A DNA stretch of 64,000 nt from an uncultured Candidatus Saccharibacteria bacterium (GTDB lineage Bacteria; Patescibacteriota; Minisyncoccia; UBA6257; 2-01-FULL-56-20): contig CAYJWW010000002.1 of NCBI GenBank assembly GCA_964374065.1, positions 4,153-68,152 of the forward strand, read 5' to 3'. A model generated the notes under the pieces. It was given only the letters and a program-made list of their open reading frames with translations. It was not told the origin of the DNA and did no database searches. The translations under genes were made by a program, and so were the position numbers. Position 1 is the first letter of the stretch. Every line of letters starts with the position of its first letter. Positions 14,584-53,291 of the stretch are shown here, piece after piece.

Positions 14584-17470
<2,887 letters not shown>

Positions 17471-17516
17471 TGCAGTTTGGATTTTATCTCTAATTCTGGA
17501 TTCCATTTTCTAGATT

Positions 17517-18035
17517 CTATGTATCGAGCGTCCTCGGACTCACAGTAGTCTGTAGGTGAATAACGCTCTCGTCAACGCCGCGCTCTCGCGCGCTCACGCC
17601 CAAATTTATGACGATCCGCGGCTGCACGTTATCCCCGACCGCATTGCCGATCGGCCGGAAGGTCAGATAGCGGATATTCACGTTGTCGGCCGTGATCCGC
17701 GCGAAGGCGCCTCCTCCAACCCGCCGCTCGATCCCTCCGTCGGATACCCCGCCTCCTTTCCTGTATGTAACGACTTCACCTGCGGCATTTTTGAACGCAA
17801 GCTCATTTGAGGTGCACGTCTGACCGTTCACGCAGAAGTCAAACCCGGTCCGGACCTCCCGATTCATCTGCTCGAGCGCCAAGCTCATATTGCTGTTCGC
17901 GGAAAGGAGCGCTGAATTCTGGCGTTGCGTTTTAAGCGCGTTCACGAATCCGCCGACCGCGATCGTCACGCCAACCGAAAAAAGCGCGATCGCGACGAGC
18001 AATTCCACGAGCGTAAAGCCGCGGCGGCGTTCCAT
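17517..18035 (-). CDS. type IV pilin-like protein (minor pilin or pseudopilin)
   Basis: Class III signal MERRRG|FTLVELLVAIALFSV with cleavage Gly, Phe+1 and Glu+5; 172 aa. Confidence 0.75.
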   Translation of the reverse strand: MERRRGFTLVELLVAIALFSVGVTIAVGGFVNALKTQRQNSALLSANSNMSLALEQMNREVRTGFDFCVNGQTCTSNELAFKNAAGEVVTYRKGGGVSDGGIERRVGGGAFARITADNVNIRYLTFRPIGNAVGDNVQPRIVINLGVSARERGVDESVIHLQTTVSPRTLDT

Positions 18036-18079: not shown

Positions 18080-19372
18080 CTACGGCCTGATCTCTTTTAA
18101 TTTCCCTCCGCTTGATTCAAACGCTCGAACTGTCGTCGTGGCTGTCGCGTTCGCGCCGCCCCCCTGCCCCGCGCACGTGATCGTATAGGTGGTGGATTGG
18201 GTGGGCTGTACGGTCGTCGTGCCGTTCGCGGGGACGGAGCCGACCGCGGGAGCGATGGCGCAGGAAGAGACGCGTTCGCAGGTCCAGGAAAGGGTGGAGG
18301 ACTTGGGGGGCGGGATCACGAGGCGGTCGGGGAAGGCGGTGAAGCTCGTGCATGTGGGGGCGCAGTCCGAGGCGCGGTCGCACTCGTTGGGGCCGGAGCC
18401 GGGGATCGTGGCGCAGGAGTTGAACTGGCAGACGCGCTTCGTGCAGAGGGGCACCCGGAAGGAGGTGCTTGGGCTGTGGGCGCCGTTGAAGACTCGGGCA
18501 TAGTAGGTCACGCCGGGCTGGAGCGAGAGCGTGTCCGACTGCTGGGGCCAGATGCCCCTGAAGTTCTCTCCGTTCGTCGATTGGGAGAGAGACTGCTTGT
18601 TATAGAAGGAACCGAAGCCCGGGTCGTCGTCGATGTCCACGTAATAGCCGAAGCCGGGGTTGGGGCTGCCGGACCAGGAGATCGCGATCTGGTCGTTGTA
18701 CGGAGAGACGGTGCAGGCGGGGAGGCCGGAGACCGTGGGGCCGGAGGGAGCGTAGGAGCCTTGGGAGTAGTAGGAACCCTGGGAGTAGCCGGGAGCGTAG
18801 GTGCCTTGGGAGTAGTAGGAGCCTTGGTAGGAGCCCTGTGAGTAACCGGGAGCGTAGGTGCCTTGGGCGTAGTAGTACCCCTGGGCGTAGTAGTAACCTT
18901 GGGTGTAGTAGTACCCCTGGGCGTAGTAGTAGCCCTGGGCGTAACCGGGAGCGTAGGTGCTTTGGGCGTAGTAGTACCCCTGGGCGTAGTAATAGCCTTG
19001 GGTGTAGTAGTACCCCTGAGCATAGTAGTACCCTTGGGCGTAATAATATCCTTGGCTATAGTAATAACCCTGGCCGTAGTAATAACCTTCGGCGTAGGCC
19101 GGAGGGGGGGCGCACGCGCAATCCTGGCCAGATTGGCAATATGAGCCGCCGCACGGTTCGATATCCCAAGGCTTGTCTTCGCAATAGGGCTCGCCGTAGT
19201 CGCAGCTGCATTGAAATGATCCGAGTGGATAGCATGCGCCCTGCGGTGGGTTGACGGTCGGATCGCAATAGCCCTGCGATTCGCACGTAACCCATGTAGC
19301 CGCGAGGAGCGCATGGGGCACGCCCGCCAAAGCAAGGAGAGCAAGAACAAAAATAACGCGATCTGGTTTCAT
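18080..19372 (-). CDS. secreted Cys-rich protein with (QGYYY[AST])n Tyr/Gly repeats and two C-terminal FN3/Ig-like domains (paralog A)
   Basis: 430 aa with signal peptide MKPDRVIFVLALLALAGVPHALLA, a Cys-rich N-terminal region, about 20 GYYYAQ-type repeats, and a C-terminal ~285 aa identical to paralog B. Confidence 0.7.
   Translation of the reverse strand: MKPDRVIFVLALLALAGVPHALLAATWVTCESQGYCDPTVNPPQGACYPLGSFQCSCDYGEPYCEDKPWDIEPCGGSYCQSGQDCACAPPPAYAEGYYYGQGYYYSQGYYYAQGYYYAQGYYYTQGYYYAQGYYYAQSTYAPGYAQGYYYAQGYYYTQGYYYAQGYYYAQGTYAPGYSQGSYQGSYYSQGTYAPGYSQGSYYSQGSYAPSGPTVSGLPACTVSPYNDQIAISWSGSPNPGFGYYVDIDDDPGFGSFYNKQSLSQSTNGENFRGIWPQQSDTLSLQPGVTYYARVFNGAHSPSTSFRVPLCTKRVCQFNSCATIPGSGPNECDRASDCAPTCTSFTAFPDRLVIPPPKSSTLSWTCERVSSCAIAPAVGSVPANGTTTVQPTQSTTYTITCAGQGGGANATATTTVRAFESSGGKLKEIRP
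18084..18942. repeat. direct repeat copy 1 (about 859 bp, essentially 100% identical to 20853-21711)
   Basis: The ORF-track artefact ORFs 18117-18383, 18189-18503 and 18197-18841 have translations identical to those at +2769. Flanks were checked by eye. Confidence 0.9.
18760..19095. repeat. in-frame tandem array of about 18-nt units encoding GYYY[AST]Q within paralog A
   Basis: Reiterated gcgtagtagta(c/g)cc(c/t)tggg units on the plus strand. Confidence 0.8.
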
Positions 19373-20842: not shown

Positions 20843-22375
20843 CTACTGTCCGGGCCTGATCTCTTTTAATTTCCCTCCGCTTGATTCAAACGCTCGAACT
20901 GTCGTCGTGGCTGTCGCGTTCGCGCCGCCCCCCTGCCCCGCGCACGTGATCGTATAGGTGGTGGATTGGGTGGGCTGTACGGTCGTCGTGCCGTTCGCGG
21001 GGACGGAGCCGACCGCGGGAGCGATGGCGCAGGAAGAGACGCGTTCGCAGGTCCAGGAAAGGGTGGAGGACTTGGGGGGCGGGATCACGAGGCGGTCGGG
21101 GAAGGCGGTGAAGCTCGTGCATGTGGGGGCGCAGTCCGAGGCGCGGTCGCACTCGTTGGGGCCGGAGCCGGGGATCGTGGCGCAGGAGTTGAACTGGCAG
21201 ACGCGCTTCGTGCAGAGGGGCACCCGGAAGGAGGTGCTTGGGCTGTGGGCGCCGTTGAAGACTCGGGCATAGTAGGTCACGCCGGGCTGGAGCGAGAGCG
21301 TGTCCGACTGCTGGGGCCAGATGCCCCTGAAGTTCTCTCCGTTCGTCGATTGGGAGAGAGACTGCTTGTTATAGAAGGAACCGAAGCCCGGGTCGTCGTC
21401 GATGTCCACGTAATAGCCGAAGCCGGGGTTGGGGCTGCCGGACCAGGAGATCGCGATCTGGTCGTTGTACGGAGAGACGGTGCAGGCGGGGAGGCCGGAG
21501 ACCGTGGGGCCGGAGGGAGCGTAGGAGCCTTGGGAGTAGTAGGAACCCTGGGAGTAGCCGGGAGCGTAGGTGCCTTGGGAGTAGTAGGAGCCTTGGTAGG
21601 AGCCCTGTGAGTAACCGGGAGCGTAGGTGCCTTGGGCGTAGTAGTACCCCTGGGCGTAGTAGTAACCTTGGGTGTAGTAGTACCCCTGGGCGTAGTAGTA
21701 GCCCTGGGCGTAGTAGTAGCCTTGGCTGTAGCCGCAACCGTAGCAGCCCTCCGCATAGTAATAGCCTTGTCCGTAGTAATAGCCCTCTGTGTAGTAATAC
21801 CCTTGGGCATAGTAATAGCCCTCAGCATAGTAGTAGCCTTGAGTATAGTAGTAGCCTTGAGCATAATAGTAGCCCTCCCCATAATAGTAGCCTTCGCTGT
21901 AGTCTGGATAGAAGCCGGTGATGCTCACATCCACCCGCACTTCGGCGTCATCCACGGCCGCCCATGTATAAATCCCGTATCTTCCGACTCCTCCTGTCCC
22001 CTCGCTTCCGCTTGTATACCCGTTGTACGGATGGACCCCTCCATACTCGTAGCCGCAACTGCCCCCAGAGCAGTTGAACCAATAGCACTGCCCCGCGCCG
22101 TCGGACTGCCGGGACCAACACGCGACGGACTGAATATACGAACCGCCGTGGCGATGGCCGCTTATATTGTAGGAAAATTCCGCGGAACCGTAGTTGTCCC
22201 GCGGGAGCCACTCCCAATTCCCGCCGCAATTTCTATCGTCTCCGTGCTTGATGCAAAGCCAATAAAAACTCGTGCTGTCGCTCCCCGCGCGCGCCACGTA
22301 GGGCACGGCGATCGACATCGCCACCGCGGACACTGCGACGAATATCAGTGCTACCTTGGTCTGCGCGGTATTCAT
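20843..22375 (-). CDS. secreted protein with (QGYYY[AST])n Tyr/Gly repeats and two C-terminal FN3/Ig-like domains (paralog B)
   Basis: 510 aa with signal peptide MNTAQTKVALIFVAVSAVAMSIAVPYVARA, a distinct N-terminal domain, a long EGYYYAQGYYYT... repeat array, and a C-terminal ~285 aa identical to paralog A. Confidence 0.7.
   Translation of the reverse strand: MNTAQTKVALIFVAVSAVAMSIAVPYVARAGSDSTSFYWLCIKHGDDRNCGGNWEWLPRDNYGSAEFSYNISGHRHGGSYIQSVACWSRQSDGAGQCYWFNCSGGSCGYEYGGVHPYNGYTSGSEGTGGVGRYGIYTWAAVDDAEVRVDVSITGFYPDYSEGYYYGEGYYYAQGYYYTQGYYYAEGYYYAQGYYYTEGYYYGQGYYYAEGCYGCGYSQGYYYAQGYYYAQGYYYTQGYYYAQGYYYAQGTYAPGYSQGSYQGSYYSQGTYAPGYSQGSYYSQGSYAPSGPTVSGLPACTVSPYNDQIAISWSGSPNPGFGYYVDIDDDPGFGSFYNKQSLSQSTNGENFRGIWPQQSDTLSLQPGVTYYARVFNGAHSPSTSFRVPLCTKRVCQFNSCATIPGSGPNECDRASDCAPTCTSFTAFPDRLVIPPPKSSTLSWTCERVSSCAIAPAVGSVPANGTTTVQPTQSTTYTITCAGQGGGANATATTTVRAFESSGGKLKEIRPGQ
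20853..21711. repeat. direct repeat copy 2 (about 859 bp)
   Basis: See copy 1; the constant offset is 2769 nt. Confidence 0.9.
21530..21905. repeat. in-frame tandem array of about 18-nt units encoding GYYY[AST]Q within paralog B
   Basis: Reiterated gtagtagta(g/c)cc(c/t)tg(g/a)g(c/t) units on the plus strand. Confidence 0.8.
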
Positions 22376-23658: not shown

Positions 23659-24198
23659 CTAGTTCTGCGGCCGCCAATTGAAGAAATGGTCCTCGAGATT
23701 GATGTCGTATTCTCCGCCGCGGCTTGACCAAGAAACAATGGAGTTCACCTTGATCTCGTTCCCGCCCACGAGTGCGACGCGGATGGTCCGCGTAAAGGGC
23801 GTCACGACCGAACCGCCGTAGCTGTAGAGGTTCTGCGACGGATCGAAAAGGAGGAACCTGCTCTGCGTCGCTTCCAAGAGCGCGCTTGCATACTGCACTT
23901 CGAAATCCCCGTTCGAGAAACCGCTGTTCCACGGGCGGTTCTGGATTACGTTCGTATCGATGATATTCTTCACCACCTCGAGTCCCTCGGCCGCGAGATA
24001 CGTCGCAGTGTAATTATCGGATACGACGCGATTCAGGCTGATCGAACGCGAAAGAAGAGTGAGAATGCCCAAAAAGCCGACGGTCAAAATCCCCAGCGCG
24101 ACGAGCGATTCGACGACGACTTGCCCCCGGCGCGCCCGTCGGCGCGCAGAAAATGGAAAATAGAAAGCGGAAAGCGGAAAACGGCGCGTTTGTTCCAT
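23659..24198 (-). CDS. type IV pilin-like protein with a long basic leader (MEQTRRFPLSAFYFPFSARRRARRG|QVVVE...)
   Basis: Gly-Gln junction with Glu at +5 followed by a hydrophobic helix; 179 aa. Its 5' module is shared with 17048..17470. Confidence 0.55.
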   Translation of the reverse strand: MEQTRRFPLSAFYFPFSARRRARRGQVVVESLVALGILTVGFLGILTLLSRSISLNRVVSDNYTATYLAAEGLEVVKNIIDTNVIQNRPWNSGFSNGDFEVQYASALLEATQSRFLLFDPSQNLYSYGGSVVTPFTRTIRVALVGGNEIKVNSIVSWSSRGGEYDINLEDHFFNWRPQN

Positions 24199-24254
24199 TG
24201 CAGTTTGGATTTTGTCTCTAATTCTGGATTCTATTTTCTAGGCTCTAGATTCTA
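24124..24254. repeat. conserved ~125-nt 5' module, copy 2
   Basis: Same sequence as copy 1 with a 7-nt internal duplication (tctaggctctag). Confidence 0.85.
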
Positions 24255-24821
24255 AAATGTGATCTGCCCCGCCGTGCTTACCCGGATCGTTATCGAGGCC
24301 GACCCGTCCGCGGTTTGGAGATAAATATTCCCGCTCCCTCCCGGCAATAGCGACCCCCCGCTCGAGATGTATGTTTTTGGTTCCGGCGGCACAAAGAGCA
24401 CCGCGTCGAGCCGGTTCGCTCCGTTGCCGTACGCCACGGCCTGAGTCAACGGGAACGATTCGAGCCTGGTGTATTTGGAACCGTCGGCGGGGTCGATCGC
24501 GGAAATGCTCGAGCAGTCGCTCACCTTATATTGGAACAGTTCGTATGAGTTCCCGGCGTAGTCGACTCGGAAACCGAACCCACAGGGACGCGAGGCATCC
24601 ACATAGGTGGCAATCGCCATCGATTTGGACTTCAGGATCAGCTGCGCGATCTTTGCTTCTTCGGTATAGAGCGCAACCTGCGCGCGCCCCGTCGACGAGT
24701 AGAGAATGAGCGAACTCGAGAGGATGCCCATGATGCCTACGACGATCAGAAGTTCGAGGAGCGTGTAGCCGCGGCGAGAAGAACGGAAGTTTTGGCGTGG
24801 AATTCGGCGGAATGCGCTCAC
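24252..24821 (-). CDS. type IV pilin-like protein (pseudopilin)
   Basis: SSRRG|YTLLELLIVVGIMGIL class III signal; 189 aa. Confidence 0.75.
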   Translation of the reverse strand: MSAFRRIPRQNFRSSRRGYTLLELLIVVGIMGILSSSLILYSSTGRAQVALYTEEAKIAQLILKSKSMAIATYVDASRPCGFGFRVDYAGNSYELFQYKVSDCSSISAIDPADGSKYTRLESFPLTQAVAYGNGANRLDAVLFVPPEPKTYISSGGSLLPGGSGNIYLQTADGSASITIRVSTAGQITF

Positions 24822-24855: not shown

Positions 24856-25656
24856 TTACCACAGTCCGCCAAAAAGCATCTGCGCGATCTGATTGCCGAA
24901 AAGAAAGACGATGAGCGCTGCGAGAGAGAGGAATGGCCCGAAGGGAAGCGCCGTTTTCCGCGTTGCCCGACCGCCGGTCATCATGCCGAGCCCAATGACC
25001 GCTCCCAATATGAAGGCGAGCATTAGAATAAAGGGGGTTGCCGGCCAGCCGAAAAGCAATCCCAGCGCCGCGCCGAATTTCACGTCCCCCATGCCCATCC
25101 CCTTCCCCCGCGTCGCCGCGATAAGCGCTCCGAAAAACGCCGCCGCGAAAATCGCGCCGTAGATGCGGGGGATGATACTCCCGAGGATGCCGCTTCCTCC
25201 GCCCGTAAGCGCGAGAAACGCGGCGAGAACCCCGAGAAAAATGACGAGCTCGTCGGGAATGAGCCGCAGCCGCAGATCGATGAGTGAAATGAGGAGCAGT
25301 ATAAGGAACACGAGGAGCCAGAAAAACTGCGGAATGGCCGCGGCCGCTCCGAATGAAACGCGGGCCGCGACCGCGTGGGGTATGACCACAAAAAGCGCGC
25401 CGGCGATGATCTCGACGAGCGGATAGGCAAAAGAGAGCCGTTTTTTACATCTGCGACATTCCCCTTTCTGCGCGAGGAAACTCAAAAGCGGAATGAGCTC
25501 GAACCAGCGAAGCGTGCGGCGACATGAGGCGCACGCCGATCTTCCGAACACGATGTCCCGCCGGATTATGAAACGGTCCGGATCGTACCGATCGGCGATG
25601 ACCTTAAGGAAACTCCCGACGGCCGCACCAAGGAAAAATTGCAGAACGTAAGTCAC
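24856..25656 (-). CDS. pilD: prepilin peptidase (A24 family)
   Basis: N-terminal CxxC...CxxC zinc-binding pairs, 8-TM topology and the GMGDVKF catalytic Asp motif; 266 aa. Confidence 0.85.
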   Translation of the reverse strand: MTYVLQFFLGAAVGSFLKVIADRYDPDRFIIRRDIVFGRSACASCRRTLRWFELIPLLSFLAQKGECRRCKKRLSFAYPLVEIIAGALFVVIPHAVAARVSFGAAAAIPQFFWLLVFLILLLISLIDLRLRLIPDELVIFLGVLAAFLALTGGGSGILGSIIPRIYGAIFAAAFFGALIAATRGKGMGMGDVKFGAALGLLFGWPATPFILMLAFILGAVIGLGMMTGGRATRKTALPFGPFLSLAALIVFLFGNQIAQMLFGGLW

Positions 25657-25716
25657 GAATAAAAAATCAAATCGGGGCTCGCGCCCTGACTATGACATTC
25701 CTGTGCGCGCTCGACC

Positions 25717-26187
25717 CTAGAAAATGATGCAGTAGATCGTATCGGATGCCGCCGTGCCGCAATCGGTGTTCCCGTAGTTCGATTGCGTGCCGTCGATATC
25801 CGTCCGGAGCGCGGGGTTGTTCCCGTCTTCGAGGTCGGCTCTCAGAAGGTACCCGTTGCGGCTCGTGTTCGGCGCATAGGTGTAATTCCTATTCGAGTTA
25901 GGATCGTTAGGAATCTTGTTCACGCCAATCGTGGCGCTCACAAGGTCGGTCTCAAGCGCCGCCCACGTGGCCGAGTTCGGGTATTGGCCGTTCTTCTGGA
26001 AGTAAAGCTCCAGCGCGGTCTGTACCTGTTTCAAGTCCGCAATGCGCCGCGCGTCCCGGCCAGTCCGCTGGGTGGGGCCCAGCCCCACGAGCACGATCGA
26101 CGCCAGAACACCGATGATCGCGACCACGATCAGCATTTCGATGAGCGTAAACCCCTGCTTCTGCTCCGAATTTTTCATCGCTTTCAT
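25717..26187 (-). CDS. type IV pilin (probable major pilin)
   Basis: MKAMKNSEQKQG|FTLIEMLIVVAIIGVLASIV is a canonical class III signal. Start chosen at M15 of the 170-aa ORF. C-terminal Cys pair (TDCG...YCIIF). Confidence 0.8.
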   Translation of the reverse strand: MKAMKNSEQKQGFTLIEMLIVVAIIGVLASIVLVGLGPTQRTGRDARRIADLKQVQTALELYFQKNGQYPNSATWAALETDLVSATIGVNKIPNDPNSNRNYTYAPNTSRNGYLLRADLEDGNNPALRTDIDGTQSNYGNTDCGTAASDTIYCIIF

Positions 26188-26304
26188 TGTACGTTTTATC
26201 ATACCATACCGCCAATCGTTCTTTTCCACAGCCCCTCCAGCCTGGAACCTGAAACCCGGAACAGGATACGAAAGGTGCGGTTTTACGAACTATGTCCTGC
26301 TTCG

Positions 26305-26353
26305 TGATTCACGATTCACGATTCAGGATTCAGGATTCAGGATTCAGGATTCA
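26305..26353. repeat. tandem heptanucleotide repeat (GATTCAS)x7 between the pilC stop and the pilin gene
   Basis: gattcac x2, gattcag x4 and gattcat x1, perfectly contiguous, about 120-165 nt upstream of the pilin start codon on the coding strand. Confidence 0.9.
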
Positions 26354-26358
26354 TGGCC

Positions 26359-27570
26359 CTACTGGATCGTCGCCGTAAGCTGATAGAGCGGCAGAAGAAT
26401 AGAGGCGAAGAGGAGGGCGATGAGCCCGCCGATGCCGATCATGAGGATCGGCTGGATAAGCTCGACCAGATTGTTGATCACGGTATCCGACTCCCTGTTA
26501 TAGAACGTGGCGATCCGGAGGAAAATCTGGTCCAGCTGTCCGGTCGCTTCTCCCACCGCGACCATTTGGGAGACAAGCTGGGGGAAATAATCGGGGTGCG
26601 CGGCGATCGCTTCCGAGAGGAGTTTCCCCTGCCGCACGCCCTGGGAAACATCGTGAAGCATATCCCTATAGAGGACGTTATCCACTGTCTCCGCCACGAT
26701 CTCCATCGCTTGCGCGACGGGCACTCCGCCCTTCACGAGCATCGCCGAAGCGTTCGCGAACCGCGCGATGGTCACGGGAAGGTATATTCGGCTGATCACC
26801 GGCAGGCGCACCTTCATATCGTCCTTGAACCCCATCCCTTCCGGCGTCTGGAAGTAGTCAAGGATCATCACGACGGAAATAATGATGACGAGGACGATCG
26901 CGGGCCACCAGCGGGCGAAGAAATCGCCGCTCCCTATCAAGACCTTGCTGATCAGCGGGAGTTGCACGCCCGATTGATCGAAAACCGGCTGTATCTGCGG
27001 GAACACCATCGTCACCATAATCACCGCGACGACGAGAAAGAGCGAGACGACGATCGCGGGGTAGATGAGCGCCGAGCGCGCCTTGGTGACAAGCACCGCT
27101 TCGCGTTCGGTGTAATCCGCGAGGAAGCCGGCGACTTGGTCCAAATTCCCCGTAACCTCCGCGGACCGGACCATGCTCACGAAGAATTCGGAAAATATCC
27201 CCCCTTGCCGCTCGAGCGCCTGCGAAAAAGCGAGCCCTGCATCAATGTCCGTCGCGATCTGGTAGACCGCCTCTTTGAGTATTGGATTCGTCGTCTGATC
27301 GTGGAGCGTCGTGAGCGCCTTGTTGAGCGATAGCCGCGCCTCGAGCAGCGTGGCGAGCTGCCGAGTGAGGATGACCATATCCTGCCTCCGAACGGCGCGG
27401 TAATAGCGCGCGATCCGGTCGTACCAGTGAGTCGTCTCGGTAGATTCGAGCTTGAGGATATAGAGGTCGTGGCTGGATAAGATGTTGACCGCGGCATCCT
27501 TCCCCCCGGCTTCCACAAAACCCACCTGAAGTTCTCCCTCCTTGGTTTTCGCTTGATATTTGAATTTCAT
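26359..27570 (-). CDS. pilC: type IV pilus assembly platform protein (GspF/PilC family)
   Basis: 403 aa; duplicated T2SF domains and three TM segments. Confidence 0.85.
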   Translation of the reverse strand: MKFKYQAKTKEGELQVGFVEAGGKDAAVNILSSHDLYILKLESTETTHWYDRIARYYRAVRRQDMVILTRQLATLLEARLSLNKALTTLHDQTTNPILKEAVYQIATDIDAGLAFSQALERQGGIFSEFFVSMVRSAEVTGNLDQVAGFLADYTEREAVLVTKARSALIYPAIVVSLFLVVAVIMVTMVFPQIQPVFDQSGVQLPLISKVLIGSGDFFARWWPAIVLVIIISVVMILDYFQTPEGMGFKDDMKVRLPVISRIYLPVTIARFANASAMLVKGGVPVAQAMEIVAETVDNVLYRDMLHDVSQGVRQGKLLSEAIAAHPDYFPQLVSQMVAVGEATGQLDQIFLRIATFYNRESDTVINNLVELIQPILMIGIGGLIALLFASILLPLYQLTATIQ

Positions 27571-27577
27571 GCGCCCG

Positions 27578-28651
27578 CTACACTCTTTCGAGCAGGATCC
27601 GCAGCTCTCCTGGATTCAGCGAATAGAGCTCCGCGCTCTCCATCGAGATCTCTTTGCTCTTGATAAGGTTCACGAGCGAGCGGTTCAGGGTCATCATCCC
27701 CTCCTGAAGAGACGTTTCGATCACGAGGTCGATCTGGTAGACCTTCCGCTCGCGGACCAGGTTCCGGATCGCGGCGTTCACGATCATGATCTCCATCGCG
27801 GGGATCCGGCCGCCCGAGAGGCGCGGCATGAGCCGGATCGAGACGATCGCGACCAAGGTCGCCGCGAGCTGGGAGACCACCTGCCCCTGCTGTTCGGCGG
27901 GGAAGGAATCGATGATGCGGTCGATCGTCTGCGAGGCGGAATTCGTGTGGAGCGTGGAGAACACCAAGTGTCCGGTCTCCGCCGCGGTCATCGCGGTCGA
28001 GATGGAGATCGCGTCGCGCATCTCGCCCAACATGATGACGTCCGGGTCCTGCCGCAAGATCGTGCGGAGTCCCGCTTGGAACGTCGGCACATCCACTCCC
28101 ACTTCCCGCTGGGAGACGATCGCCCTGTCCTGCGTGAAGAGATATTCTATCGGGTCTTCGATCGTGATGATGTGGTCCGCGCGAGCGTGGTTGATCTCAT
28201 CCAGAAGCGCCGCGAGCGTCGTGGACTTCCCGTGGCCGGCGGGTCCCACGACGAGAATGAACCCTTGCGAAAGCTTTGCGAAGTCGTGGAGGATCGGCGG
28301 AAGCATGAGTTCCTCGAGGCTGCGGATCCTCCCCGGGATCAGCCGGAGCGCCGCGGCCGGATAGCCGCGCTGGTAATAGACGTTCACGCGGAACCTTGCC
28401 TTATCTTCGAAGCTGTATGCAAAATCGATCTGCTTGTTCTTTGAAAGCTTTTCTTTTTGGTCGTCATTCAGCAAAACCGTGATGAGTCCTTCGGCGCCCT
28501 CCGGAGTGAGCAGTTCTTCCTTCTGTATCGGAACAAGCACGCCGTCGATGCGGAGCATTGGGCGCCTCCCCACCGAAAGGTGGAGGTCCGAAGCGTTCTG
28601 TTTCGCCGTGGTTACCAACAGCTCTTTTAATCTTTCTGCGTAGTTCGTCAT
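27578..28651 (-). CDS. pilT: twitching-motility (retraction) ATPase PilT
   Basis: Walker A GPAGHGKSTT, PilT Asp box, His box; 357 aa. Confidence 0.85.
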   Translation of the reverse strand: MTNYAERLKELLVTTAKQNASDLHLSVGRRPMLRIDGVLVPIQKEELLTPEGAEGLITVLLNDDQKEKLSKNKQIDFAYSFEDKARFRVNVYYQRGYPAAALRLIPGRIRSLEELMLPPILHDFAKLSQGFILVVGPAGHGKSTTLAALLDEINHARADHIITIEDPIEYLFTQDRAIVSQREVGVDVPTFQAGLRTILRQDPDVIMLGEMRDAISISTAMTAAETGHLVFSTLHTNSASQTIDRIIDSFPAEQQGQVVSQLAATLVAIVSIRLMPRLSGGRIPAMEIMIVNAAIRNLVRERKVYQIDLVIETSLQEGMMTLNRSLVNLIKSKEISMESAELYSLNPGELRILLERV

Positions 28652-28680
28652 ATCAGTTCAATTGTTCCATCATAACACAA

Positions 28681-30414
28681 CTACCCGAGAATATTTTCTT
28701 CGGTGCTTCGGAACACCTCCTCCATCGCCACTTGTCCTTCGAGCGCCTTCAGCACGCCGTCGCCGCGAAGATCGATCATCCCCTGCGCTTTCGCTTCCTT
28801 CAAGATTTTCTGCAGCGAGGGCGCGGATTGGATGACTGCTTCGAGTCCGGGTGTCATCTGGAGCACCTCATAGATCGCGATGCGTCCTACGACTCCCCGA
28901 TTATTGCATTTCGCGCAACCCTCGGCGTGAAATATCATGTACGGTTCCTTGTATTTTCCCGCCAGCTCCGGAGGGAGCCCTTCCAACGCCTTGCGGATCG
29001 CCTGCGCGAGCGGAGGAGGCGCTTCGTCTGAGCGTTTACAGCCCGGGCATAGAAGTCCCACCAGCCGCTGAGACAGCAAAAGATTCAAAGTCACGGGCAG
29101 CAAGAACGGCTCTATTTTCATGTCCAAGAGGCGCGGGATCACGCCGGCGGCATTATTCGTGTGGAGCGTGGAAAGCACGATGTGGCCCGTGAGCGCCGCC
29201 TGCACGGCGAGCGCCGCCGTCTCGTTGTCGCGGATCTCGCCCACCATTATCACGTCCGGGTCCTGCCGCAAAATCTGCCGCAGGCCGGAAGCGAAATCGT
29301 ACCCGATCTCGGGACGCACTTGCGACTGATTCACGCCCGACACGAAATATTCCACCGGATCTTCGAGGCTCACGATATTCACGTTCTCCTTGTTTAGCGT
29401 CTGCAGGAGCGCGTAGAGCGTCGTGGTCTTCCCGGAACCGGTGGGGCCGGTGATCAAGATCATACCGAAGGGTTTTTCGAGGCCGGCCTGGACGATCTCT
29501 AAGTTTTTGCCTACGAGCCCCAAGTCATTGAAGCTTTTAAGGCCCGTTGTGGGGTCGAGCACTCGAATCGCGACTTTTTCGCCCAAGGGCGTAGGGAAAG
29601 TTGCGACGCGGAAATCCACTTCGCGGTCGAGTATCCGCGCGCGGAATCGTCCGTCCTGCGGGACCCGCGTCTCATCGATCTTCAGGCTCGAGAGCACTTT
29701 GATGCGCGAGACGACCGGTTGCGCCAACTGGAGCGGCAGCGCCGCGCCTTCCTGCAAATCTCCGTCAATCCGGAACCTGATCCGGAGGTGCGTTTGCTGC
29801 GGCTCTATATGAATGTCGGATGCGCCATTCTGCGTCGCTTCCTTAAGCGTATCTGAGACGATCTTGATAATCGGCGCTTCTTCCCCGCCTTTCATTGACT
29901 CGTCCTCGAGTTGAACGATCCGCCTTCCCGCCTCGCCTTTCACTTGCACGGAACGGACCGCGGCTTCGATGGAACTTTTATACGGAGAGTATCGCCGGAG
30001 AATCTCCTGCCAATCGCCCCACCCGATGAGATATATGCCCAAGGTAACGCGCGAACGGTTCGCGATGAACTTAAGGGCTTCCTGGGCCTTTACATCGTCG
30101 GGGTTCACCATCCCCGCGATAAGCATTTCCCCCTGCTGCGCCAAGGGCGCCACCCCGTATGTTCTCACCGTTTCCTCGGGGATCAATTCGATAACCTTGG
30201 GATCGTATCCCTCGAAGTTTACTTTTTGGTAGGGCACACCGAGTATCTGGCTTTTGACCTCGGCGATTTTCGCATCATCCAGAAGCCCTCGGTCATGGAT
30301 CAGGTCTTCCGCGCTCCTGCCGGAGAGGAGCGCTTCTCGCTTCAGCTTGACAATAGCGTTCGGTTCGAGAAGTCGCCGCGATTGGAGTTCATTGAAGAGC
30401 TGGTCGGAGGTCAT
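28681..30414 (-). CDS. pilB: type IV pilus assembly (extension) ATPase PilB/GspE
   Basis: 577 aa; GSPII-E N-domain, Walker A GPTGSGKTTT and a tetra-Cys motif CPGC...CAKC. Confidence 0.85.
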   Translation of the reverse strand: MTSDQLFNELQSRRLLEPNAIVKLKREALLSGRSAEDLIHDRGLLDDAKIAEVKSQILGVPYQKVNFEGYDPKVIELIPEETVRTYGVAPLAQQGEMLIAGMVNPDDVKAQEALKFIANRSRVTLGIYLIGWGDWQEILRRYSPYKSSIEAAVRSVQVKGEAGRRIVQLEDESMKGGEEAPIIKIVSDTLKEATQNGASDIHIEPQQTHLRIRFRIDGDLQEGAALPLQLAQPVVSRIKVLSSLKIDETRVPQDGRFRARILDREVDFRVATFPTPLGEKVAIRVLDPTTGLKSFNDLGLVGKNLEIVQAGLEKPFGMILITGPTGSGKTTTLYALLQTLNKENVNIVSLEDPVEYFVSGVNQSQVRPEIGYDFASGLRQILRQDPDVIMVGEIRDNETAALAVQAALTGHIVLSTLHTNNAAGVIPRLLDMKIEPFLLPVTLNLLLSQRLVGLLCPGCKRSDEAPPPLAQAIRKALEGLPPELAGKYKEPYMIFHAEGCAKCNNRGVVGRIAIYEVLQMTPGLEAVIQSAPSLQKILKEAKAQGMIDLRGDGVLKALEGQVAMEEVFRSTEENILG

Positions 30415-41267: not shown

Positions 41268-44069
41268 ATGCAGTATGGACCTCTTAAGCGTGCCTTCAAA
41301 AAACGGCGGGCGCATGTCGCCGTCGTAGGCCTTGGGTATGTCGGGATTCCGACCGTTTTGGCGATGGTTCGCGCCGGCATACGCGTCACGGGCATCGACA
41401 TCGATAAAAAACGCGTCGCCGATCTGAACCGAGGCAAAAGCTTCATCGCGGAAATCCCCGATGCGGCGATACGGGAAGCGCAAAAAAAATTCCGCGCGAC
41501 CACGGACTGGAAGGAGCTCAGGAAGGCAAATGCCGTCCTGATCGCGGTCCCTACGCCGCTTACGAGGAATAAAACCCCCGACACCTCCGCGATCGAAACG
41601 GCGGCGAAAAACATTTCAAAATCTCTGCGAAAAGGGACTCTGGTCGTTCTGGAAAGCACGACGTATCCGGGGACGACGGAGGAACTTCTGCGACCGATTC
41701 TCGAGAAATCCGGCCTCAGGGCGGGGAAGGATTTCTATCTCGCGTTCGCGCCGGAGCGCGTGGATCCCGGAAGCAAACATCGTTTCACCGATATTCCGAA
41801 AGTGGTGGGCGGTATTGACGCACGCTCGACCGAGCTTGCGGCGGCGCTCTATGGAAGCTTTTTGAGAGGGGTTCATCGCGTATCTTCGCCGCGCGCCGCC
41901 GAGATGACCAAACTCCTCGAAAACATCTTCCGGCTCGTGAATATCTCGCTCGTGAACGAATTGAAGATGATCGCGGACAAAATGGGAATCGACTTTTGGG
42001 AAGTGATAGAGGCGGCGAAAACCAAACCGTATGGCTTCATGCCGTTCTACCCCGGCCCCGGCGTCGGCGGCCACTGTCTCGAGAAACACCAACGCGTCGT
42101 AATTGAAGAAAAGAGGGAAGTGAATGCATACACGATGGAGGAACTCTATCGAAAGTATGCCGATGCGTGCGTGAAACGTCAGCCGGCATTGGTTGCGGCG
42201 GCACAAGAAAATGTCTCTGACGGGCACACTCTTGCTTTTTCAAAAAATACACATCATTCAGTAAATTCCCCTCTCGCTCCTTTTCGCGTTGCCTCGTTTG
42301 ATTCTAATAAAGGCACAATTTCCTTTGAGCGGGTTGACTTTATCTCGAAACGAGAGAGTAATCACGTCCTTAACATTAAATGCCATTACAACCGAGAGCT
42401 TCGCGTCACGGACGAGCATCCTCTTTATGTGTGGGACGAAGGGACTAAGACACTACGAGTCAAGTGGGCAAAAGACCTCCGGCCGGGTGAGTTTCTGGTA
42501 TATCCTCGGTTACTTCCTCAATCAACTCGAGTTCCCGCGTATGACCTTATCGCAGCACTCCAAAAACAATTCCCATCGCTTATACCACGATATCGAGTCA
42601 AACTTAAGGAAAGGCTCTGGCGCGACTACAAAGAAAATCTCGACCCTTGCTTCGTAGGAGACGATAAAAAACAGGATTACCTGAAAAACAACTCTATTCC
42701 TTTAGAGGAGTACCTTCGCATCGAGAAAAATCTTCCTGTCCCGAGAACAAAAATCCTTCTCGTAAGCGGCCGTGGGTCTTCGTTCGGCACGCTACCTGCT
42801 ATTCTTTCGTTTGATTCCGAATGGGCGAGGCTTTTGGGGTATTACTTAAGCGAGGGGTGTATCACTGAAGACGCGAAAACAATGGGCATAAGATGGACAT
42901 TCCACTCTAAAGAGAAGGAGTACATAGAAGATGTGGAGGCTATACTGCGCAATAAAGGGATCGCTTTTTCTACCTACCAAGATGAACAGTGGCGGAGTTT
43001 TCATATCAAAGTATCTTCAACGCTTCTTGCGCTTTTCTTCCAAGACATTCTTCATACCGGCGTTGACTGCTACACCATGCGCATACCCCAAGAGCTTTTT
43101 ATGAGCGCGCCAGAATTTCGAAAAGAAGTGCTAGCTGGAATTTTACGCGGCGATGGTGGGGTGTGGCGCACTAATCGTCCAAACTCTTATCGCAAAAACG
43201 GCCGTTCTTACACGCATCACAATAACTCTATCGAACTGTGTTATTTCACGTCTTCTCCGATACTCTTCGAACAAGTACAACTCATATTGAATGAGCTGGG
43301 CGTAATCTATAAACTCGAACGGCGACCGGGCCTCATAAAGATGAAAGGGCCCGAAAATGCACGGACCCTCGCTGTGCTTTTTTCGGGAGCAAAACGACAT
43401 CTCGTCGAAGATTATCTTCGACAGATCTCTAAAAGACCTCATTATGATTATGCCCGCACCACTGACGGCTATGTCCTGATTCGGGTAAAAACAATAACAA
43501 GAATCGAGGAAGTTCAAGATGTATATTCGTTAGAAGTGAACCGCCATAGCACATTCCTTACTAATGGAGGTCTTGCGATTCACAACTGCATCCCCTTAGA
43601 CCCTTTTTATCTCTCATGGAAAGCCCGCGAATATAATTTCTTCACCCGCTTCATCGACCTCGCCGGAGAGATCAATGAACTCATGCCGCATCACGTGGTA
43701 ACAAAGGTCATCTGGGCCCTGAATGCCCGCGGCAAAGCCGTGCGAGGCGCAAAAATACTCGTGCTCGGCGTCGCCTACAAGAAAGACATCGATGACCCGC
43801 GCGAATCACCCGCGATCCCCGTGATCTGGGACCTCTTGCGCAAGGGCGCGCGGGTCGTCTACAATGACCCCTTCGTTCGCACTCTGCGCGTGAATGAAAA
43901 AGAGCTTCGCTCTTCTCCCCTCACGAAAGACGCCGTGAAGGACGCCGACTGCGTCATAATCCTCACCGATCACGGCGCCTACGATTACCCGATGCTCGCG
44001 CGCCACGCAAAATGCCTCGTCGATACGCGCGGAGCGATCAAGACGCGCGGACCAAACATCATTTCGTAA
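41268..44069 (+). CDS. UDP-sugar 6-dehydrogenase (WbpA/TviB-like nucleotide-sugar dehydrogenase) carrying a 504-aa intein; the spliced enzyme would be 429 aa
   Basis: N-terminal Rossmann motif VVGLGYVGIP. The catalytic motif is split as GPGVGGH | intein | CIPLDPFYL, which rejoins to GGHCIPLDP. C-terminal UDP-binding domain is present. Confidence 0.85.
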   Translation: MQYGPLKRAFKKRRAHVAVVGLGYVGIPTVLAMVRAGIRVTGIDIDKKRVADLNRGKSFIAEIPDAAIREAQKKFRATTDWKELRKANAVLIAVPTPLTRNKTPDTSAIETAAKNISKSLRKGTLVVLESTTYPGTTEELLRPILEKSGLRAGKDFYLAFAPERVDPGSKHRFTDIPKVVGGIDARSTELAAALYGSFLRGVHRVSSPRAAEMTKLLENIFRLVNISLVNELKMIADKMGIDFWEVIEAAKTKPYGFMPFYPGPGVGGHCLEKHQRVVIEEKREVNAYTMEELYRKYADACVKRQPALVAAAQENVSDGHTLAFSKNTHHSVNSPLAPFRVASFDSNKGTISFERVDFISKRESNHVLNIKCHYNRELRVTDEHPLYVWDEGTKTLRVKWAKDLRPGEFLVYPRLLPQSTRVPAYDLIAALQKQFPSLIPRYRVKLKERLWRDYKENLDPCFVGDDKKQDYLKNNSIPLEEYLRIEKNLPVPRTKILLVSGRGSSFGTLPAILSFDSEWARLLGYYLSEGCITEDAKTMGIRWTFHSKEKEYIEDVEAILRNKGIAFSTYQDEQWRSFHIKVSSTLLALFFQDILHTGVDCYTMRIPQELFMSAPEFRKEVLAGILRGDGGVWRTNRPNSYRKNGRSYTHHNNSIELCYFTSSPILFEQVQLILNELGVIYKLERRPGLIKMKGPENARTLAVLFSGAKRHLVEDYLRQISKRPHYDYARTTDGYVLIRVKTITRIEEVQDVYSLEVNRHSTFLTNGGLAIHNCIPLDPFYLSWKAREYNFFTRFIDLAGEINELMPHHVVTKVIWALNARGKAVRGAKILVLGVAYKKDIDDPRESPAIPVIWDLLRKGARVVYNDPFVRTLRVNEKELRSSPLTKDAVKDADCVIILTDHGAYDYPMLARHAKCLVDTRGAIKTRGPNIIS
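42075..43586 (+). mobile_element. intein with a LAGLIDADG homing-endonuclease domain, inserted at the catalytic Cys codon of the dehydrogenase
   Basis: Starts with Cys (CLEKH...) and ends with His-Asn followed by a +1 Cys. Block B TDEHPL; two LAGLIDADG motifs (LLGYYLSEGCI, LAGILRGDGGV). GC is markedly lower than in the exteins. Confidence 0.8.
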
Positions 44070-49603: not shown

Positions 49604-50266
49604 TTGACTCGAACCATGCCATACGATACAGAGCGCCAATTCCGGCTCACGCCAGAAGAGTATCTCGCAAAATTGGATTTTCTGAATTGGTATCGCTACT
49701 TTTTTATAGTCCGCGAACTCTGCCGTATGCGGGCGAAGACGGTTCTTGAGATTGGTCCTGGAGAAGGCACGGTGAAGCGCGTAATGCTCCCGTTCGTCGA
49801 GACATATACGACGATGGATATCAACGAGCGCCTGGGGCCGGACGTAGTGAGCGACGTGCGCATCTCCGCACCGGAGCTCTCCGGAAAATTCGATGCGGTT
49901 ATCGCGGCGGATATTCTGGAACATATTCCATTTCCGGAACTCCTGGCTGCATTAAGGAATATGCACGAATATCTTGCTCCGGGAGGCCACGCGCTTATCA
50001 CGATCCCCCATCGCGCATGGTTCACGTTCCGTATGTCGTGGCGCGACTACCGGCACCATGTACTCCGAGCGCCGGGATGGTTCCGCACCCTCTACCACCG
50101 GTTAAAAGGGCGGCGCGAAAACCCAATCGATCCGGATCATGCATGGGAAATCGGCGACGGGACGCACCGCGTGCGAGATGTGGAGGAGCGAATGCGCGAT
50201 GCGGGATTCGCCATCCTAAAACGAGAGCCTCTTCTCTATGTCGATTTTTGGGTACTTAGAAAATAG
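49604..50266 (+). CDS. class I SAM-dependent methyltransferase (type 11-like)
   Basis: Motif I VLEIGPGEGT and motif II AADILEHIP; 220 aa. Confidence 0.6.
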   Translation: MTRTMPYDTERQFRLTPEEYLAKLDFLNWYRYFFIVRELCRMRAKTVLEIGPGEGTVKRVMLPFVETYTTMDINERLGPDVVSDVRISAPELSGKFDAVIAADILEHIPFPELLAALRNMHEYLAPGGHALITIPHRAWFTFRMSWRDYRHHVLRAPGWFRTLYHRLKGRRENPIDPDHAWEIGDGTHRVRDVEERMRDAGFAILKREPLLYVDFWVLRK

Positions 50267-50271
50267 ATCTG

Positions 50272-50868
50272 ATGAGGAAACGCGCCATTGATGTTATTGT
50301 GTCCGGATGCGCCTTGATCCTTCTTTCCCCATTCTTCCTTGTGATAGCCGCGCTTATTAAGGCAAAAGATCGCGGCCCCGTCTTCTATCGCGGCGAGCGG
50401 GTGGGTCTCCATGGGAGACCGTTCCGAATTTTCAAATTCCGCAGCATGGTCGTGAATGCCGAGAAAACGGGGGTTGCTTCGACCGCATCCGGGGATCCCC
50501 GCATTACCCCAATCGGTAAGTTTCTCCGCAGGACGAAACTCGACGAAGTTCCCCAGCTTATTAACGTGTTTAGAGGAGACATGAGCTTGGTAGGCCCGCG
50601 GCCCGAGGTCAAAAAATTCACCGACCTCTACACGACCGAAGAAAAAGCGCTCCTCACGATCAGGCCCGGCATGACGGATTATGCCTCTCTCTGGAACTTC
50701 AATGAAGCAGAAGCGCTCGAAGGAAGCGCCGATCCCGACAAGGACTATTTGGAAAAGATCCGACCGGAGAAGATCCGGCTCCAATTGAAGTATTTCCGCG
50801 AGCAATCGTTCTTGACCGATTTGAAGATCATCTTCCTTACGATCAAAAAAACGCTCGTGGGGAAATAA
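50272..50868 (+). CDS. undecaprenyl-phosphate sugar phosphotransferase (small bacterial sugar transferase, PglC/WbaP C-terminal-like)
   Basis: KRxxD start with one TM helix, then FRSM ... DEVPQLINVFRGDMSLVGPRPE catalytic motif; 198 aa. Confidence 0.75.
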   Translation: MRKRAIDVIVSGCALILLSPFFLVIAALIKAKDRGPVFYRGERVGLHGRPFRIFKFRSMVVNAEKTGVASTASGDPRITPIGKFLRRTKLDEVPQLINVFRGDMSLVGPRPEVKKFTDLYTTEEKALLTIRPGMTDYASLWNFNEAEALEGSADPDKDYLEKIRPEKIRLQLKYFREQSFLTDLKIIFLTIKKTLVGK

Positions 50869-50872
50869 CCGT

Positions 50873-51274: not shown

Positions 51275-51361
51275 AACCCGCGCCGGTTGACGTCCTGTAT
51301 TGATATCTTATAGTAAAAACTGAGAATAGGGCGGGGTATCGCCTTTTCCGTTACCTAAGAC

Positions 51362-51667: not shown

Positions 51668-51676
51668 CATGAATAT

Positions 51677-52763: not shown

Positions 52764-52767
52764 CAAA

Positions 52768-53265: not shown

Positions 53266-53291
53266 ATCCAGCGGAATAAAAGCCCGCCTTA

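What the first reader, a model, noticed from the sequence alone, without database searches (positions are those of the whole stretch)
26305..26353. Seven tandem heptanucleotide repeats (GATTCAS) in the upstream region of the major pilin gene
A perfect contiguous array (gattcac x2, gattcag x4, gattcat x1) lies 5 nt after the pilC stop and about 120-165 nt upstream of the pilin start, which places it in the pilin promoter or leader. Heptamer tracts change promoter phasing by 7 bp per unit. That is a classic slipped-strand mechanism for ON/OFF or level switching of surface structures, as with fimbrial phase variation in Haemophilus and Neisseria. Such a tract is unexpected in this type of genome.
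Basis: partly seen in the sequence, partly recalled or inferred. Interest (0 to 1): 0.65.

Follow-up and report, generated by a model that had tools for sequence, protein, structure and literature searches.

The report
Length-variable heptamer repeat upstream of pilin
A real, slippage-prone 7-base repeat sits between the pilC and pilin genes of an uncultured Patescibacteria bacterium and differs by one unit between near-identical strains, but it lies about 90 bases upstream of the likely pilin promoter, so an on/off switch of the pilus is not supported.

Summary
The tract is real: seven contiguous GATTCAN units at + strand 26306-26354 (sense strand ATGAATC, CTGAATC x4, GTGAATC x2), 4-5 nt after the pilC stop. 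The genome is a Liptonbacteria/Paceibacteria-like member of the Patescibacteria (CPR). Two independent assemblies with identical PilC and pilin carry six units. They otherwise differ from the window by one substitution each over 5.1 and 3.2 kb, so unit number does vary. By comparison with about 75 relatives, the pilin promoter lies downstream of the tract: a DnaA-box-like 9-mer, TTGGCG-18-TACAAT, then ATG 7 nt later (leaderless type). The tract therefore spans about -128 to -176 and cannot alter -35/-10 spacing. It has no significant RNA structure and no Rfam match. The three closest sampled relatives lack a repeat at this position. Period-7 arrays are common in pilus-gene spacers of this phylum (33 of 70 short tandem arrays). 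In a Wolfebacteria-like species, a (TAACAGC)2-4 array in a pilin 5'UTR hairpin is also length-polymorphic. Verdict: a hypermutable intergenic heptamer microsatellite, a new member of a known kind. An effect on expression is possible but unshown and at most graded.

The parts
26306..26354 (-). Heptanucleotide tandem array, 7 units. Sense strand 5'-ATGAATC (CTGAATC)x4 (GTGAATC)x2-3'; + strand GATTCAC x2, GATTCAG x4, GATTCAT x1.
26320..26347 (-). Homogeneous block of four identical CTGAATC units. This is the part that is one unit shorter (three units) in the two other assemblies, L001 and L002.
26359..27570 (-). pilC (T2SSF platform protein, 403 aa); stop codon TAG at 26361-26359.
26295..26328 (-). 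Local imperfect hairpin (16-nt arms, 13 of 16 paired, 2-nt loop) formed by the GTGAATC end of the array and the unique flank. No U-tract follows, so it is not terminator-like.
26222..26230 (+). DnaA-box-like 9-mer TTTTCCACA (TGTGGAAAA on the pilin sense strand). It is one of only two such 9-mers in 64 kb. The same motif class lies in the pilC-pilin spacer of 14 relatives.
26186..26215 (-). Predicted pilin core promoter TTGGCG-18 nt-TACAAT. ATG 26178 follows the -10 by 7 nt (leaderless type). An overlapping alternative is the extended -10 TGGTATGAT at 26198-26206.
   Evidence: analogy with L084 (GATAAT-7-ATG) and L088 (TATAAT-6-ATG); 54 of 72 spacers hold an extended -10
25717..26187 (-). Major pilin gene (prepilin with an N-terminal methylation motif). 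Candidate starts are ATG 26187, ATG 26178, or GTG 26229 preceded by GGAGG at 26238-26234.
24856..25656 (-). Prepilin peptidase pilD (A24_N_bact plus Peptidase_A24).
27578..30414 (-). pilT-like (27578-28651) and pilB-like (28681-30414) ATPases upstream in the same operon.

Best explanation
The tract is a hypermutable heptanucleotide microsatellite in the pilC-pilin spacer of a Patescibacteria genome. It gains and loses whole units by replication slippage within its block of identical CTGAATC units. This is shown: 7 units here and 6 in two near-identical assemblies.

It lies about 90 nt upstream of the -35 of the predicted pilin promoter, at roughly -128 to -176 from a leaderless start at 26178. 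This position is inferred by comparison with relatives. A 7-bp step therefore cannot change -35/-10 spacing or the reading frame, and a simple ON/OFF switch is unlikely.

It most likely arose recently by expansion in a dispensable spacer, through the same slippage bias that makes heptamer arrays the commonest short tandem repeat in pilus-locus spacers of this phylum. Any effect on pilin expression would be graded. It could act by changing the distance or helical phase (240 degrees per unit) between upstream DNA and the promoter, or by changing the pilC-pilin read-through RNA. Such an effect is unshown; I put it at about one in three.
For: The array is real and non-random.

Six-unit alleles occur in Logan contigs from ERR3478686 and ERR4904390, which encode identical PilC and pilin. 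The 7-nt gap at 26347-26353 is the only indel, alongside one substitution each over 5,088 and 3,184 nt. Neither allele contains a repeated 31-mer, so a k=31 graph cannot collapse 7 units to 6.

The only sigma-70-like site in 25600-26700 is 26215-26186. The closest relatives place a -10 element 6-7 nt before the pilin ATG. 54 of 72 spacers have an extended -10 after the pilC stop, and 14 of 72 have a DnaA-box-like 9-mer there, as the window does at 26222-26230.

The closest relatives (PilC 71-72% identical) have spacers of 15-88 nt with no repeat at this position, so the tract is species-specific.

Period 7 accounts for 33 of 70 tandem arrays with at least 3.5 copies in 83 loci. Exact (GAATCCT)n arrays occur in at least 120 metagenome contigs with GC 0.32-0.70, in every gene configuration.

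Over-representation of heptamer SSRs in bacteria, and the polymerase-slippage explanation for it, are already in the literature (PMC4692102).
Against: No transcript data exist. The promoter is predicted only by consensus and analogy. A promoter inside the pilC 3' end, or read-through from pilC, would put the tract in pilin mRNA.

Only three genomes of this species were found, and a single slippage event could explain 7 versus 6.

Independent heptamer arrays recur in the pilC-pilin spacer of other species. In a Wolfebacteria-like species one is polymorphic and part of a 5'UTR hairpin abutting the start codon. This hints that such arrays can be functional.

Degenerate arrays with the same GAATC core lie upstream of two minor-pilin-like genes in this window. 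Distal SSRs do regulate nadA and ctxAB (PMC2791445; 10.1101/2021.05.14.444153).
Confidence: 0.6

Rival explanations
1. Contingency locus. Slippage in the tract switches or tunes transcription of the major pilin and gives heterogeneous piliation in the population. This could work by re-phasing a distal operator or activator site against the promoter (nadA-like), or because the units are themselves regulator or nucleoid-protein binding sites (ctxAB-like).
For: Unit number varies between near-identical strains. The tract is upstream of a surface-structure gene. Independent heptamer arrays occupy the same spacer in other Patescibacteria, and one is polymorphic with 2, 3 or 4 units. Arrays with a GAATC core also precede two minor-pilin-like genes in the same locus. 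Distal SSR regulation has precedent (PMC2791445; 10.1101/2021.05.14.444153).
Against: The tract is about 90 nt upstream of the predicted -35 and is not in the -35/-10 spacer. No repeated operator-like motif flanks it; the inverted repeats around it are only 71-81% complementary and short. It is absent from the closest relatives. Only 4 identical units are available for slippage. Heptamer arrays occur in all spacers of the pilus operon, not preferentially before the pilin gene. In the Wolfebacteria-like species 19 of 21 contigs have the same allele.
Confidence: 0.2
2. RNA-level element. The tract is transcribed, either by read-through from pilC or from a promoter inside pilC. It would then act in the intercistronic RNA as a processing, stability or translation-control hairpin, as in the H. 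influenzae hmw 5'UTR, and unit number would change the structure.
For: In relatives the heptamer arrays come as inverted pairs that fold into 5'UTR hairpins better than shuffles: L213 z=-2.9, L212 z=-2.3, L216 z=-2.4, L210 z=-2.4. The window has a weak partner arm at 26234-26256 (74% complementary) that overlaps a GGAGG. No terminator is predicted between pilC and the pilin gene.
Against: The window spacer folds no better than shuffles on either strand (z=-0.18 and -0.23). The minimum-energy structure does not pair the array with the partner arm. There is no Rfam match. The predicted pilin promoter is downstream of the tract.
Confidence: 0.1
3. Cluster of GANTC (GAATC) methylation sites. Seven sites in 49 bp would act as an epigenetic or restriction-related element.
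For: Each unit contains GAATC. GANTC is under-represented in the window: 250 observed against 383 +/- 17 expected.
Against: No GANTC methyltransferase was identified. Arrays in relatives have unrelated units without GANTC. The under-representation is moderate and may reflect codon usage.
Confidence: 0.04
4. Assembly artefact: the 7-versus-6 difference, or the array itself, was produced by the assemblers.
For: Tandem repeats are a classic source of mis-assembly, and no reads could be inspected.
Against: The array is 49 nt, shorter than a read. No 31-mer is repeated in either allele. The 6-unit allele was recovered independently from two sequencing runs. The same kind of variation appears in MEGAHIT and SPAdes assemblies of another species.
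Confidence: 0.03

Closest known systems
Haemophilus influenzae hmw1A/hmw2A (ATCTTTC)n heptanucleotide SSR (PMC12721329, PMC8262952)
   Same: It is a 7-nt unit tandem array upstream of a surface-adhesin gene, and it changes by whole units between closely related bacteria. Related Patescibacteria arrays (L213, L210) also sit in a 5'UTR hairpin, as in hmw.
   Different: The hmw tract is in the 5'UTR, has at least 11 units, pairs with a G-rich arm and is cut by RNase III. The window tract has 6-7 units, lies upstream of the predicted promoter and has no significant hairpin. No effect on expression is known.
Neisseria meningitidis nadA TAAA tract (PMC2791445)
   Same: It is an SSR distal to the core promoter, upstream of the -35, before an adhesin gene. 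This shows that distal tracts can modulate expression by re-spacing operators.
   Different: In nadA the tract is flanked by mapped NadR operators and an IHF site. No flanking operators were found here. The unit is 4 nt in nadA and 7 nt here.
Vibrio cholerae ctxAB promoter TTTTGAT heptad repeats (10.1101/2021.05.14.444153)
   Same: These are tandem heptamers upstream of a promoter, and their number differs among strains.
   Different: The ctx heptads abut the core promoter and are binding sites for ToxR, ToxT and H-NS. The window tract is 90 nt from the -35, is not AT-rich, and no binding protein is known.
Dispersed intergenic heptamer repeats: Xanthomonas GGGAATC, Nostoc GGGGATT (PMC4692102), Beggiatoaceae TAACTGA (PMC4679880), and cyanobacterial STRR (from my own knowledge)
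   Same: These are intergenic arrays of period 7 with a GAATC-like core (Xanthomonas), length variation between close relatives, and sometimes inverted pairs. The Wolfebacteria-like (TAACAGC)n abutting the start codon resembles TAACTGA arrays, which lie just upstream of start codons without a Shine-Dalgarno sequence.
   Different: Those families have one unit dispersed at tens to hundreds of loci per genome. Here the exact unit occurs once in 64 kb, and units differ from genome to genome. The unit is not G-rich, so no G-quadruplex is expected.
H. influenzae hif fimbrial TA repeats and Neisseria homopolymer promoter tracts (classic spacing switches; from my own knowledge)
   Same: These are SSRs next to a pilus or fimbria gene.
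   Different: Those tracts lie between the -35 and -10, so one unit changes promoter strength. The window tract lies outside the core promoter.

Membership tests
SSR-mediated phase-variable (contingency) locus | Perfect or near-perfect tandem simple-sequence tract | tested here: met
   7 units, 97% match, TRF score 82; 0 of 100 shuffles reached it
SSR-mediated phase-variable (contingency) locus | Tract length differs among otherwise near-identical genomes | tested here: met
   7 versus 6 units. It is the only indel in 5.1 and 3.2 kb, alongside 1 substitution each. Only three genomes were found, so a single event would suffice.
SSR-mediated phase-variable (contingency) locus | Tract placed where a unit change alters expression (in an ORF, between -35 and -10, or in a functional 5'UTR or operator arrangement) | tested here: inconclusive
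   It is not in an ORF, and by prediction it is not between -35 and -10. A distal-operator or 5'UTR role can be neither shown nor excluded.
SSR-mediated phase-variable (contingency) locus | High-frequency, reversible switching within a clonal population, with a phenotype | not testable with these tools
   This needs per-read unit counts and expression data.
hmw-type 5'UTR SSR hairpin | SSR transcribed in the 5'UTR and paired with a complementary arm in a stable long hairpin | tested here: not met
   Window spacer z=-0.18 and -0.23; the partner arm is only 74% complementary; the predicted promoter is downstream. The feature is met in relatives L213 and L210 (z=-2.9 and -2.4).
ctxAB-type heptad activator or H-NS binding array | Heptads contiguous with the core promoter and bound by regulators | tested here: not met
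   There are 90 nt between the tract and the predicted -35. Protein binding is not testable here.
Dispersed genomic heptamer repeat family (STRR, GGGAATC or TAACTGA type) | The same unit in tandem arrays at many loci of one genome | tested here: inconclusive
   The exact unit occurs at one locus in 64 kb. Degenerate arrays with a GAATC core lie at 24217-24254 and about 17480-17515. The whole genome is not available.
Intrinsic terminator of pilC | GC-rich stem-loop followed by a U-tract | tested here: not met
   No terminator-like site lies in 26190-26360. The local hairpin at 26295-26328 has no U-tract.
Known structured RNA family (Rfam) | Match to a covariance model | tested here: not met
   Only chance-level hits (E=2 and 2.7). 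At the gathering threshold only tRNAs were found in the window.

The most novel reading that the evidence does not exclude
Hypervariable heptamer-repeat elements could be a lineage-wide cis-regulatory device of type IV pilus loci in Patescibacteria. Arrays with unrelated units have arisen independently in the spacers of pilB, pilT, pilC, the pilin gene and minor-pilin genes. They often occur as inverted pairs that form 5'UTR hairpins abutting start codons that lack a Shine-Dalgarno sequence. Their unit number drifts between strains: 6-7 in this species and 2-4 in a Wolfebacteria-like species. If unit number tunes pilin transcription, processing or translation, these episymbionts would have a built-in generator of heterogeneity in the organelle they use to attach to hosts and take up DNA. 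The window tract would be the distal-promoter version of that device.
Probability: 0.2. Interest if true: 0.7.

Novelty: new member of a known kind. Interest (0 to 1): 0.42.

Why it matters
Type IV pili are conserved across Patescibacteria and drive host attachment and motility in the cultivated Saccharibacteria (PMC11623550). I found no paper in the searchable library linking simple-sequence repeats or phase variation to this phylum.

A pilin-adjacent repeat that demonstrably changes length between near-identical strains is a concrete, cheap-to-test candidate for stochastic variation of a key surface organelle in uncultured episymbionts. It is also a useful strain marker.

The more sober result has practical value too. 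The tract is not in the core promoter, and heptamer arrays are ordinary in these loci. Such tracts should therefore not be annotated as phase switches on position alone.

Tried and rejected
1. Promoter inside or abutting the tract. No -35/-10 combination was found there by scan or by eye.
2. Terminator. None was predicted.
3. RNA structure of the spacer on either strand. It is no better than shuffles.
4. Rfam. Nothing was found.
5. A copy of the spacer elsewhere in the window or in relatives. It is unique.
6. More genomes of the same species. An exact 21-nt flank search of the JGI metagenomes gave 0 hits. The protein collection holds only two contigs with this PilC and pilin.
7. The idea that heptamer units are selected to carry stop codons in all three frames on the sense strand. 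26 of 37 arrays do so, against 22 expected and 22 on the antisense strand. Rejected.
8. The idea that (GAATCCT)n marks a particular gene context. The 120 metagenome hits show every gene orientation, with no bias.
9. GANTC methylation cluster. Only a moderate genome-wide depletion was found and no methyltransferase is known; kept as a low-probability rival.
10. Hairpins around the start codons of the two minor-pilin-like paralogues. Not significant (z=+0.96 and -1.58).
11. The + strand ORFs across the tract (26042-26383 and 26353-27333) are artefacts of the stop-free antisense frame of the repeat and of pilC.

Full report
**1. Observation**

The + strand of the window reads GATTCAC x2 (26306-26319), GATTCAG x4 (26320-26347) and GATTCAT (26348-26354). 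These are seven contiguous heptamers in which GATTCA is invariant and only the seventh base varies. TRF reports period 7, 6.9 copies, 97% matches and score 82. A two-unit pattern matches six times here and nowhere else in 64 kb, against 0.06 expected; 0 of 100 shuffles reached it.

All neighbouring genes are on the minus strand:
- pilB-like, 28681-30414
- pilT-like, 27578-28651
- pilC, 26359-27570 (T2SSF, E=1e-55; stop TAG at 26361-26359)
- a prepilin, 25717-26187 (N_methyl motif; ...KQG|FTLIEM)
- pilD, 24856-25656
- further pilin-like genes

On the sense strand the tract reads ATGAATC (CTGAATC)x4 (GTGAATC)x2. It begins 4-5 nt after the pilC stop.

**2. Organism**

PilC homologues are all from Patescibacteria (Liptonbacteria, Paceibacteria, 'Parcubacteria'). 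The best hit that is not the same strain is 72% identical. The window is about 57% GC.

**3. Does the tract vary? Yes**

An exact-sequence look-up of the window's PilC and pilin found two contigs from independent sequencing runs: L001 from ERR3478686 (5,088 nt) and L002 from ERR4904390 (3,184 nt). Both have six units, with three CTGAATC instead of four.

Alignment to the window shows one substitution each (at 27688 and 27238) plus the same 7-nt gap at 26347-26353. There is no other indel. The imperfect period-7 arrays at 24149-24254, which L001 also covers, are unchanged.

Neither allele contains a repeated 31-mer. From my own knowledge, Logan assemblies use k=31, so the graph has no cycle that could collapse 7 units to 6.

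Thus one of three mutational differences in about 5 kb falls in a 49-nt tract, and it is an in-register loss or gain of one unit in the block of identical units. That is the signature of slippage. Caveat: there are only three genomes, and one event could account for it.

**4. Where is the pilin promoter?**

In 25600-26700 the only sigma-70-like site is TTGGCG-18-TACAAT at 26215-26186 on the minus strand. ATG 26178 follows the -10 by 7 nt. An overlapping extended -10 (TGGTATGAT, 26206-26198) is also present.

I compared the pilC-pilin spacer in 72 loci:
- The median distance from the pilC stop to the prepilin Gly codon is 98 nt.
- 54 spacers have an extended -10 (TGnTAnRMT), usually right after the pilC stop.
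- 49 have a conserved 5'UTR motif, [AT]GGTCG.
- 14 have a DnaA-box-like 9-mer, TT[AT]TCCACA.

The closest relatives (PilC 71-72% identical) have spacers of 15, 44 and 88 nt. L084 reads GATAAT-7 nt-ATG, L088 reads TATAAT-6 nt-ATG, and L087 reads GATAAT followed by the GGTCG motif. L084 and L088 thus look leaderless or nearly so.

The window fits this pattern: TTTTCCACA at 26222-26230 (one of only two such 9-mers in 64 kb), then the -35, the -10 and the ATG.

On this inference the tract spans about -128 to -176, with 90 nt between it and the -35. No promoter-like element lies in or next to the tract. An alternative start, GTG 26229 preceded by GGAGG at 26238-26234, would need a promoter in 26240-26305, where I found none.

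**5. Other properties of the tract and spacer**

The spacer RNA folds no better than shuffles on either strand (z=-0.18 and -0.23). There is a local 16-nt-arm hairpin at 26295-26328 without a U-tract, and a weak partner arm at 26234-26256 that is 74% complementary. No terminator and no Rfam family were found.

The spacer is unique in the window and among the relatives. The three closest sampled relatives have no repeat at this position, so the tract is a recent, species-specific expansion.

**6. The wider pattern**

In 83 pilC loci, period 7 accounts for 33 of 70 TRF arrays with at least 3.5 copies; periods 6 and 9 account for 9 and 8. The arrays lie in the pilB-pilT, pilT-pilC, pilC-pilin and downstream spacers. 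Their units vary: AAATCCT, ATTTAGG, CTAAACT, AAATAAC, ATGAGAT and others. They often form inverted pairs. Their position relative to the promoter also varies: upstream of the -10 in L046 and L057, and in the 5'UTR in L047, L073, L006 and L080.

In a Wolfebacteria-like species the pilin 5'UTR reads AAAGGTCGA ... (GCTTTTA)~4 - loop - (TAACAGC)n TAAATAAATG. Among 21 distinct contigs encoding one of two near-identical PilC proteins (P0190, P0191), n is 4 in 19, 3 in one and 2 in one. Among ten 6.2-kb loci this is the only internal indel, against 20 substitution columns. The two arrays fold into a hairpin (z=-2.9 with 4 units) that shortens as units are lost. The L073/L210 (AAATCCT)5 array abutting the pilin ATG also folds into a hairpin (z=-2.4).

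Their GC ranges from 0.32 to 0.70, they have 4-20 units, and they show every gene orientation.

So heptamer arrays are ordinary in these loci and beyond. [quoted passage not shown] Related cases are Xanthomonas GGGAATC, Nostoc GGGGATT and Beggiatoaceae TAACTGA repeats (PMC4692102, PMC4679880).

**7. Mechanism**

Shown: the tract is a slippage-prone SSR with at least two alleles.

Inferred: it lies outside the core promoter and outside any ORF, so it cannot act as a spacing or frameshift switch.

The best-supported reading (confidence 0.6) is a recently expanded, hypermutable microsatellite in a dispensable spacer, whose effect on pilin expression is nil or graded.

The rivals are:
- a distal contingency locus of the nadA or ctxAB type (0.2)
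- an RNA element in read-through transcripts, of the hmw type (0.1)
- a cluster of GANTC sites (0.04; GANTC 250 observed against 383 +/- 17 expected)
- an assembly artefact (0.03)

**8. Comparison with known systems**

By function the closest analogues are the hmw (ATCTTTC)n tract (PMC12721329), the nadA TAAA tract (PMC2791445) and the ctxAB TTTTGAT heptads (10.1101/2021.05.14.444153).

On membership as an SSR contingency locus, the tract meets the structural criterion and the polymorphism criterion. It does not meet the placement criterion by prediction. The switching and phenotype criteria cannot be tested here. It is not an hmw-type hairpin, not a ctx-type promoter-contiguous array, not a terminator and not a known RNA family.

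**9. Novelty and score**

This is a new member of a known kind: an intergenic heptanucleotide SSR, here in a phylum where the library holds no report of SSR variation.

Interest is 0.42. The length polymorphism next to the pilin gene of an uncultured episymbiont lineage is real and easy to follow up, but the proposed switch mechanism is not supported and the tract type is common.

The most novel reading that the evidence does not exclude is that heptamer-repeat elements form a lineage-wide tuning device for pilus genes. I give that a probability of about 0.2.

Noticed in passing
L212-L234 (Wolfebacteria-like; e.g. L213 3726-3794): The pilin 5'UTR consists of two inverted heptamer arrays, (GCTTTTA)~4 and (TAACAGC)n, ending 7 nt before the ATG. 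Among 21 contigs from different samples, n is 4 in 19, 3 in one and 2 in one. It is the only internal indel in 6.2 kb. The hairpin has z=-2.9 with 4 units.
   Followed up: yes
L004-L083, about 10-45 nt before the pilin ATG: A conserved motif A(A/T)GGTCG(A), typically AAAGGTCGA, lies in 49 of 72 pilC-pilin spacers between the extended -10 and the pilin start. In these loci it is concentrated in that spacer. It is absent from the window spacer. Its function is unknown and it matches no Rfam family in the window region.
   Followed up: partly
window 26222-26230 (+); L012, L016, L023, L026, L029, L030, L040, L059, L062, L067, L068, L080, L088, L089 spacers: A perfect DnaA-box-like 9-mer, TT(A/T)TCCACA, sits upstream of the pilin -10 in many Paceibacteria. 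14 of the 28 such 9-mers in 472 kb of relatives lie in the pilC-pilin spacer, which is about 2% of that sequence. The window has only two in 64 kb, and one is here.
   Followed up: partly
window 24138-24258 and 17405-17520 (-): A 104-nt segment is duplicated at 91% identity around the start codons of two paralogous minor-pilin-like genes. Upstream are degenerate heptamers (TAGAATC, TAGAGCC, TAGAAAA, TAGAATC, CAGAATT) that share the GAATC core of the main tract and start right at the stop codon of the preceding gene. Downstream, in the first codons, are CNYTTTC heptamers that are partly complementary. Folding is not significant (z=+0.96 and -1.58).
   Followed up: partly
window 18080-19372 and 20843-22375 (-): Two paralogous large ORFs (430 and 510 aa, no Pfam hit for the latter) carry long runs of G-Y-Y-Y-[AT]-[QE] hexapeptide repeats, encoded by 18/36/99-nt tandem repeats. 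They lie next to the pilin-like genes and may be pilus-associated surface proteins with variable repeat number.
   Followed up: no
GAATCCC variants and inverted pairs sometimes occur on the same contig (L110, L141, L143, L173, L177). There is no orientation bias relative to flanking ORFs. No control heptamer could be scanned.
   Followed up: partly
window, whole: GANTC is under-represented: 250 sites against 383 +/- 17 in dinucleotide-preserving shuffles. Seven of the 250 sites lie in the tract.
   Followed up: no
L084, L088 and window 26176-26191: Pilin genes in this clade appear to be leaderless or nearly so, with a -10 hexamer 6-7 nt before the ATG and no Shine-Dalgarno sequence. More distant relatives (L063, L077, L066) use GGAGGTG instead.
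   Followed up: partly
window 42001-44000 and 50001-54000: Two stretches have markedly lower GC (0.47-0.49, against about 0.57 elsewhere). They may be acquired DNA.
   Followed up: no
L211 (Logan contig SRR17622021_41023), 3' end: The contig stops inside the (AAATCCT)n array of the L073 species. This is consistent with a k-mer cycle at longer perfect arrays, so short-k assemblies will tend to break at, and under-report, such tracts.
   Followed up: no
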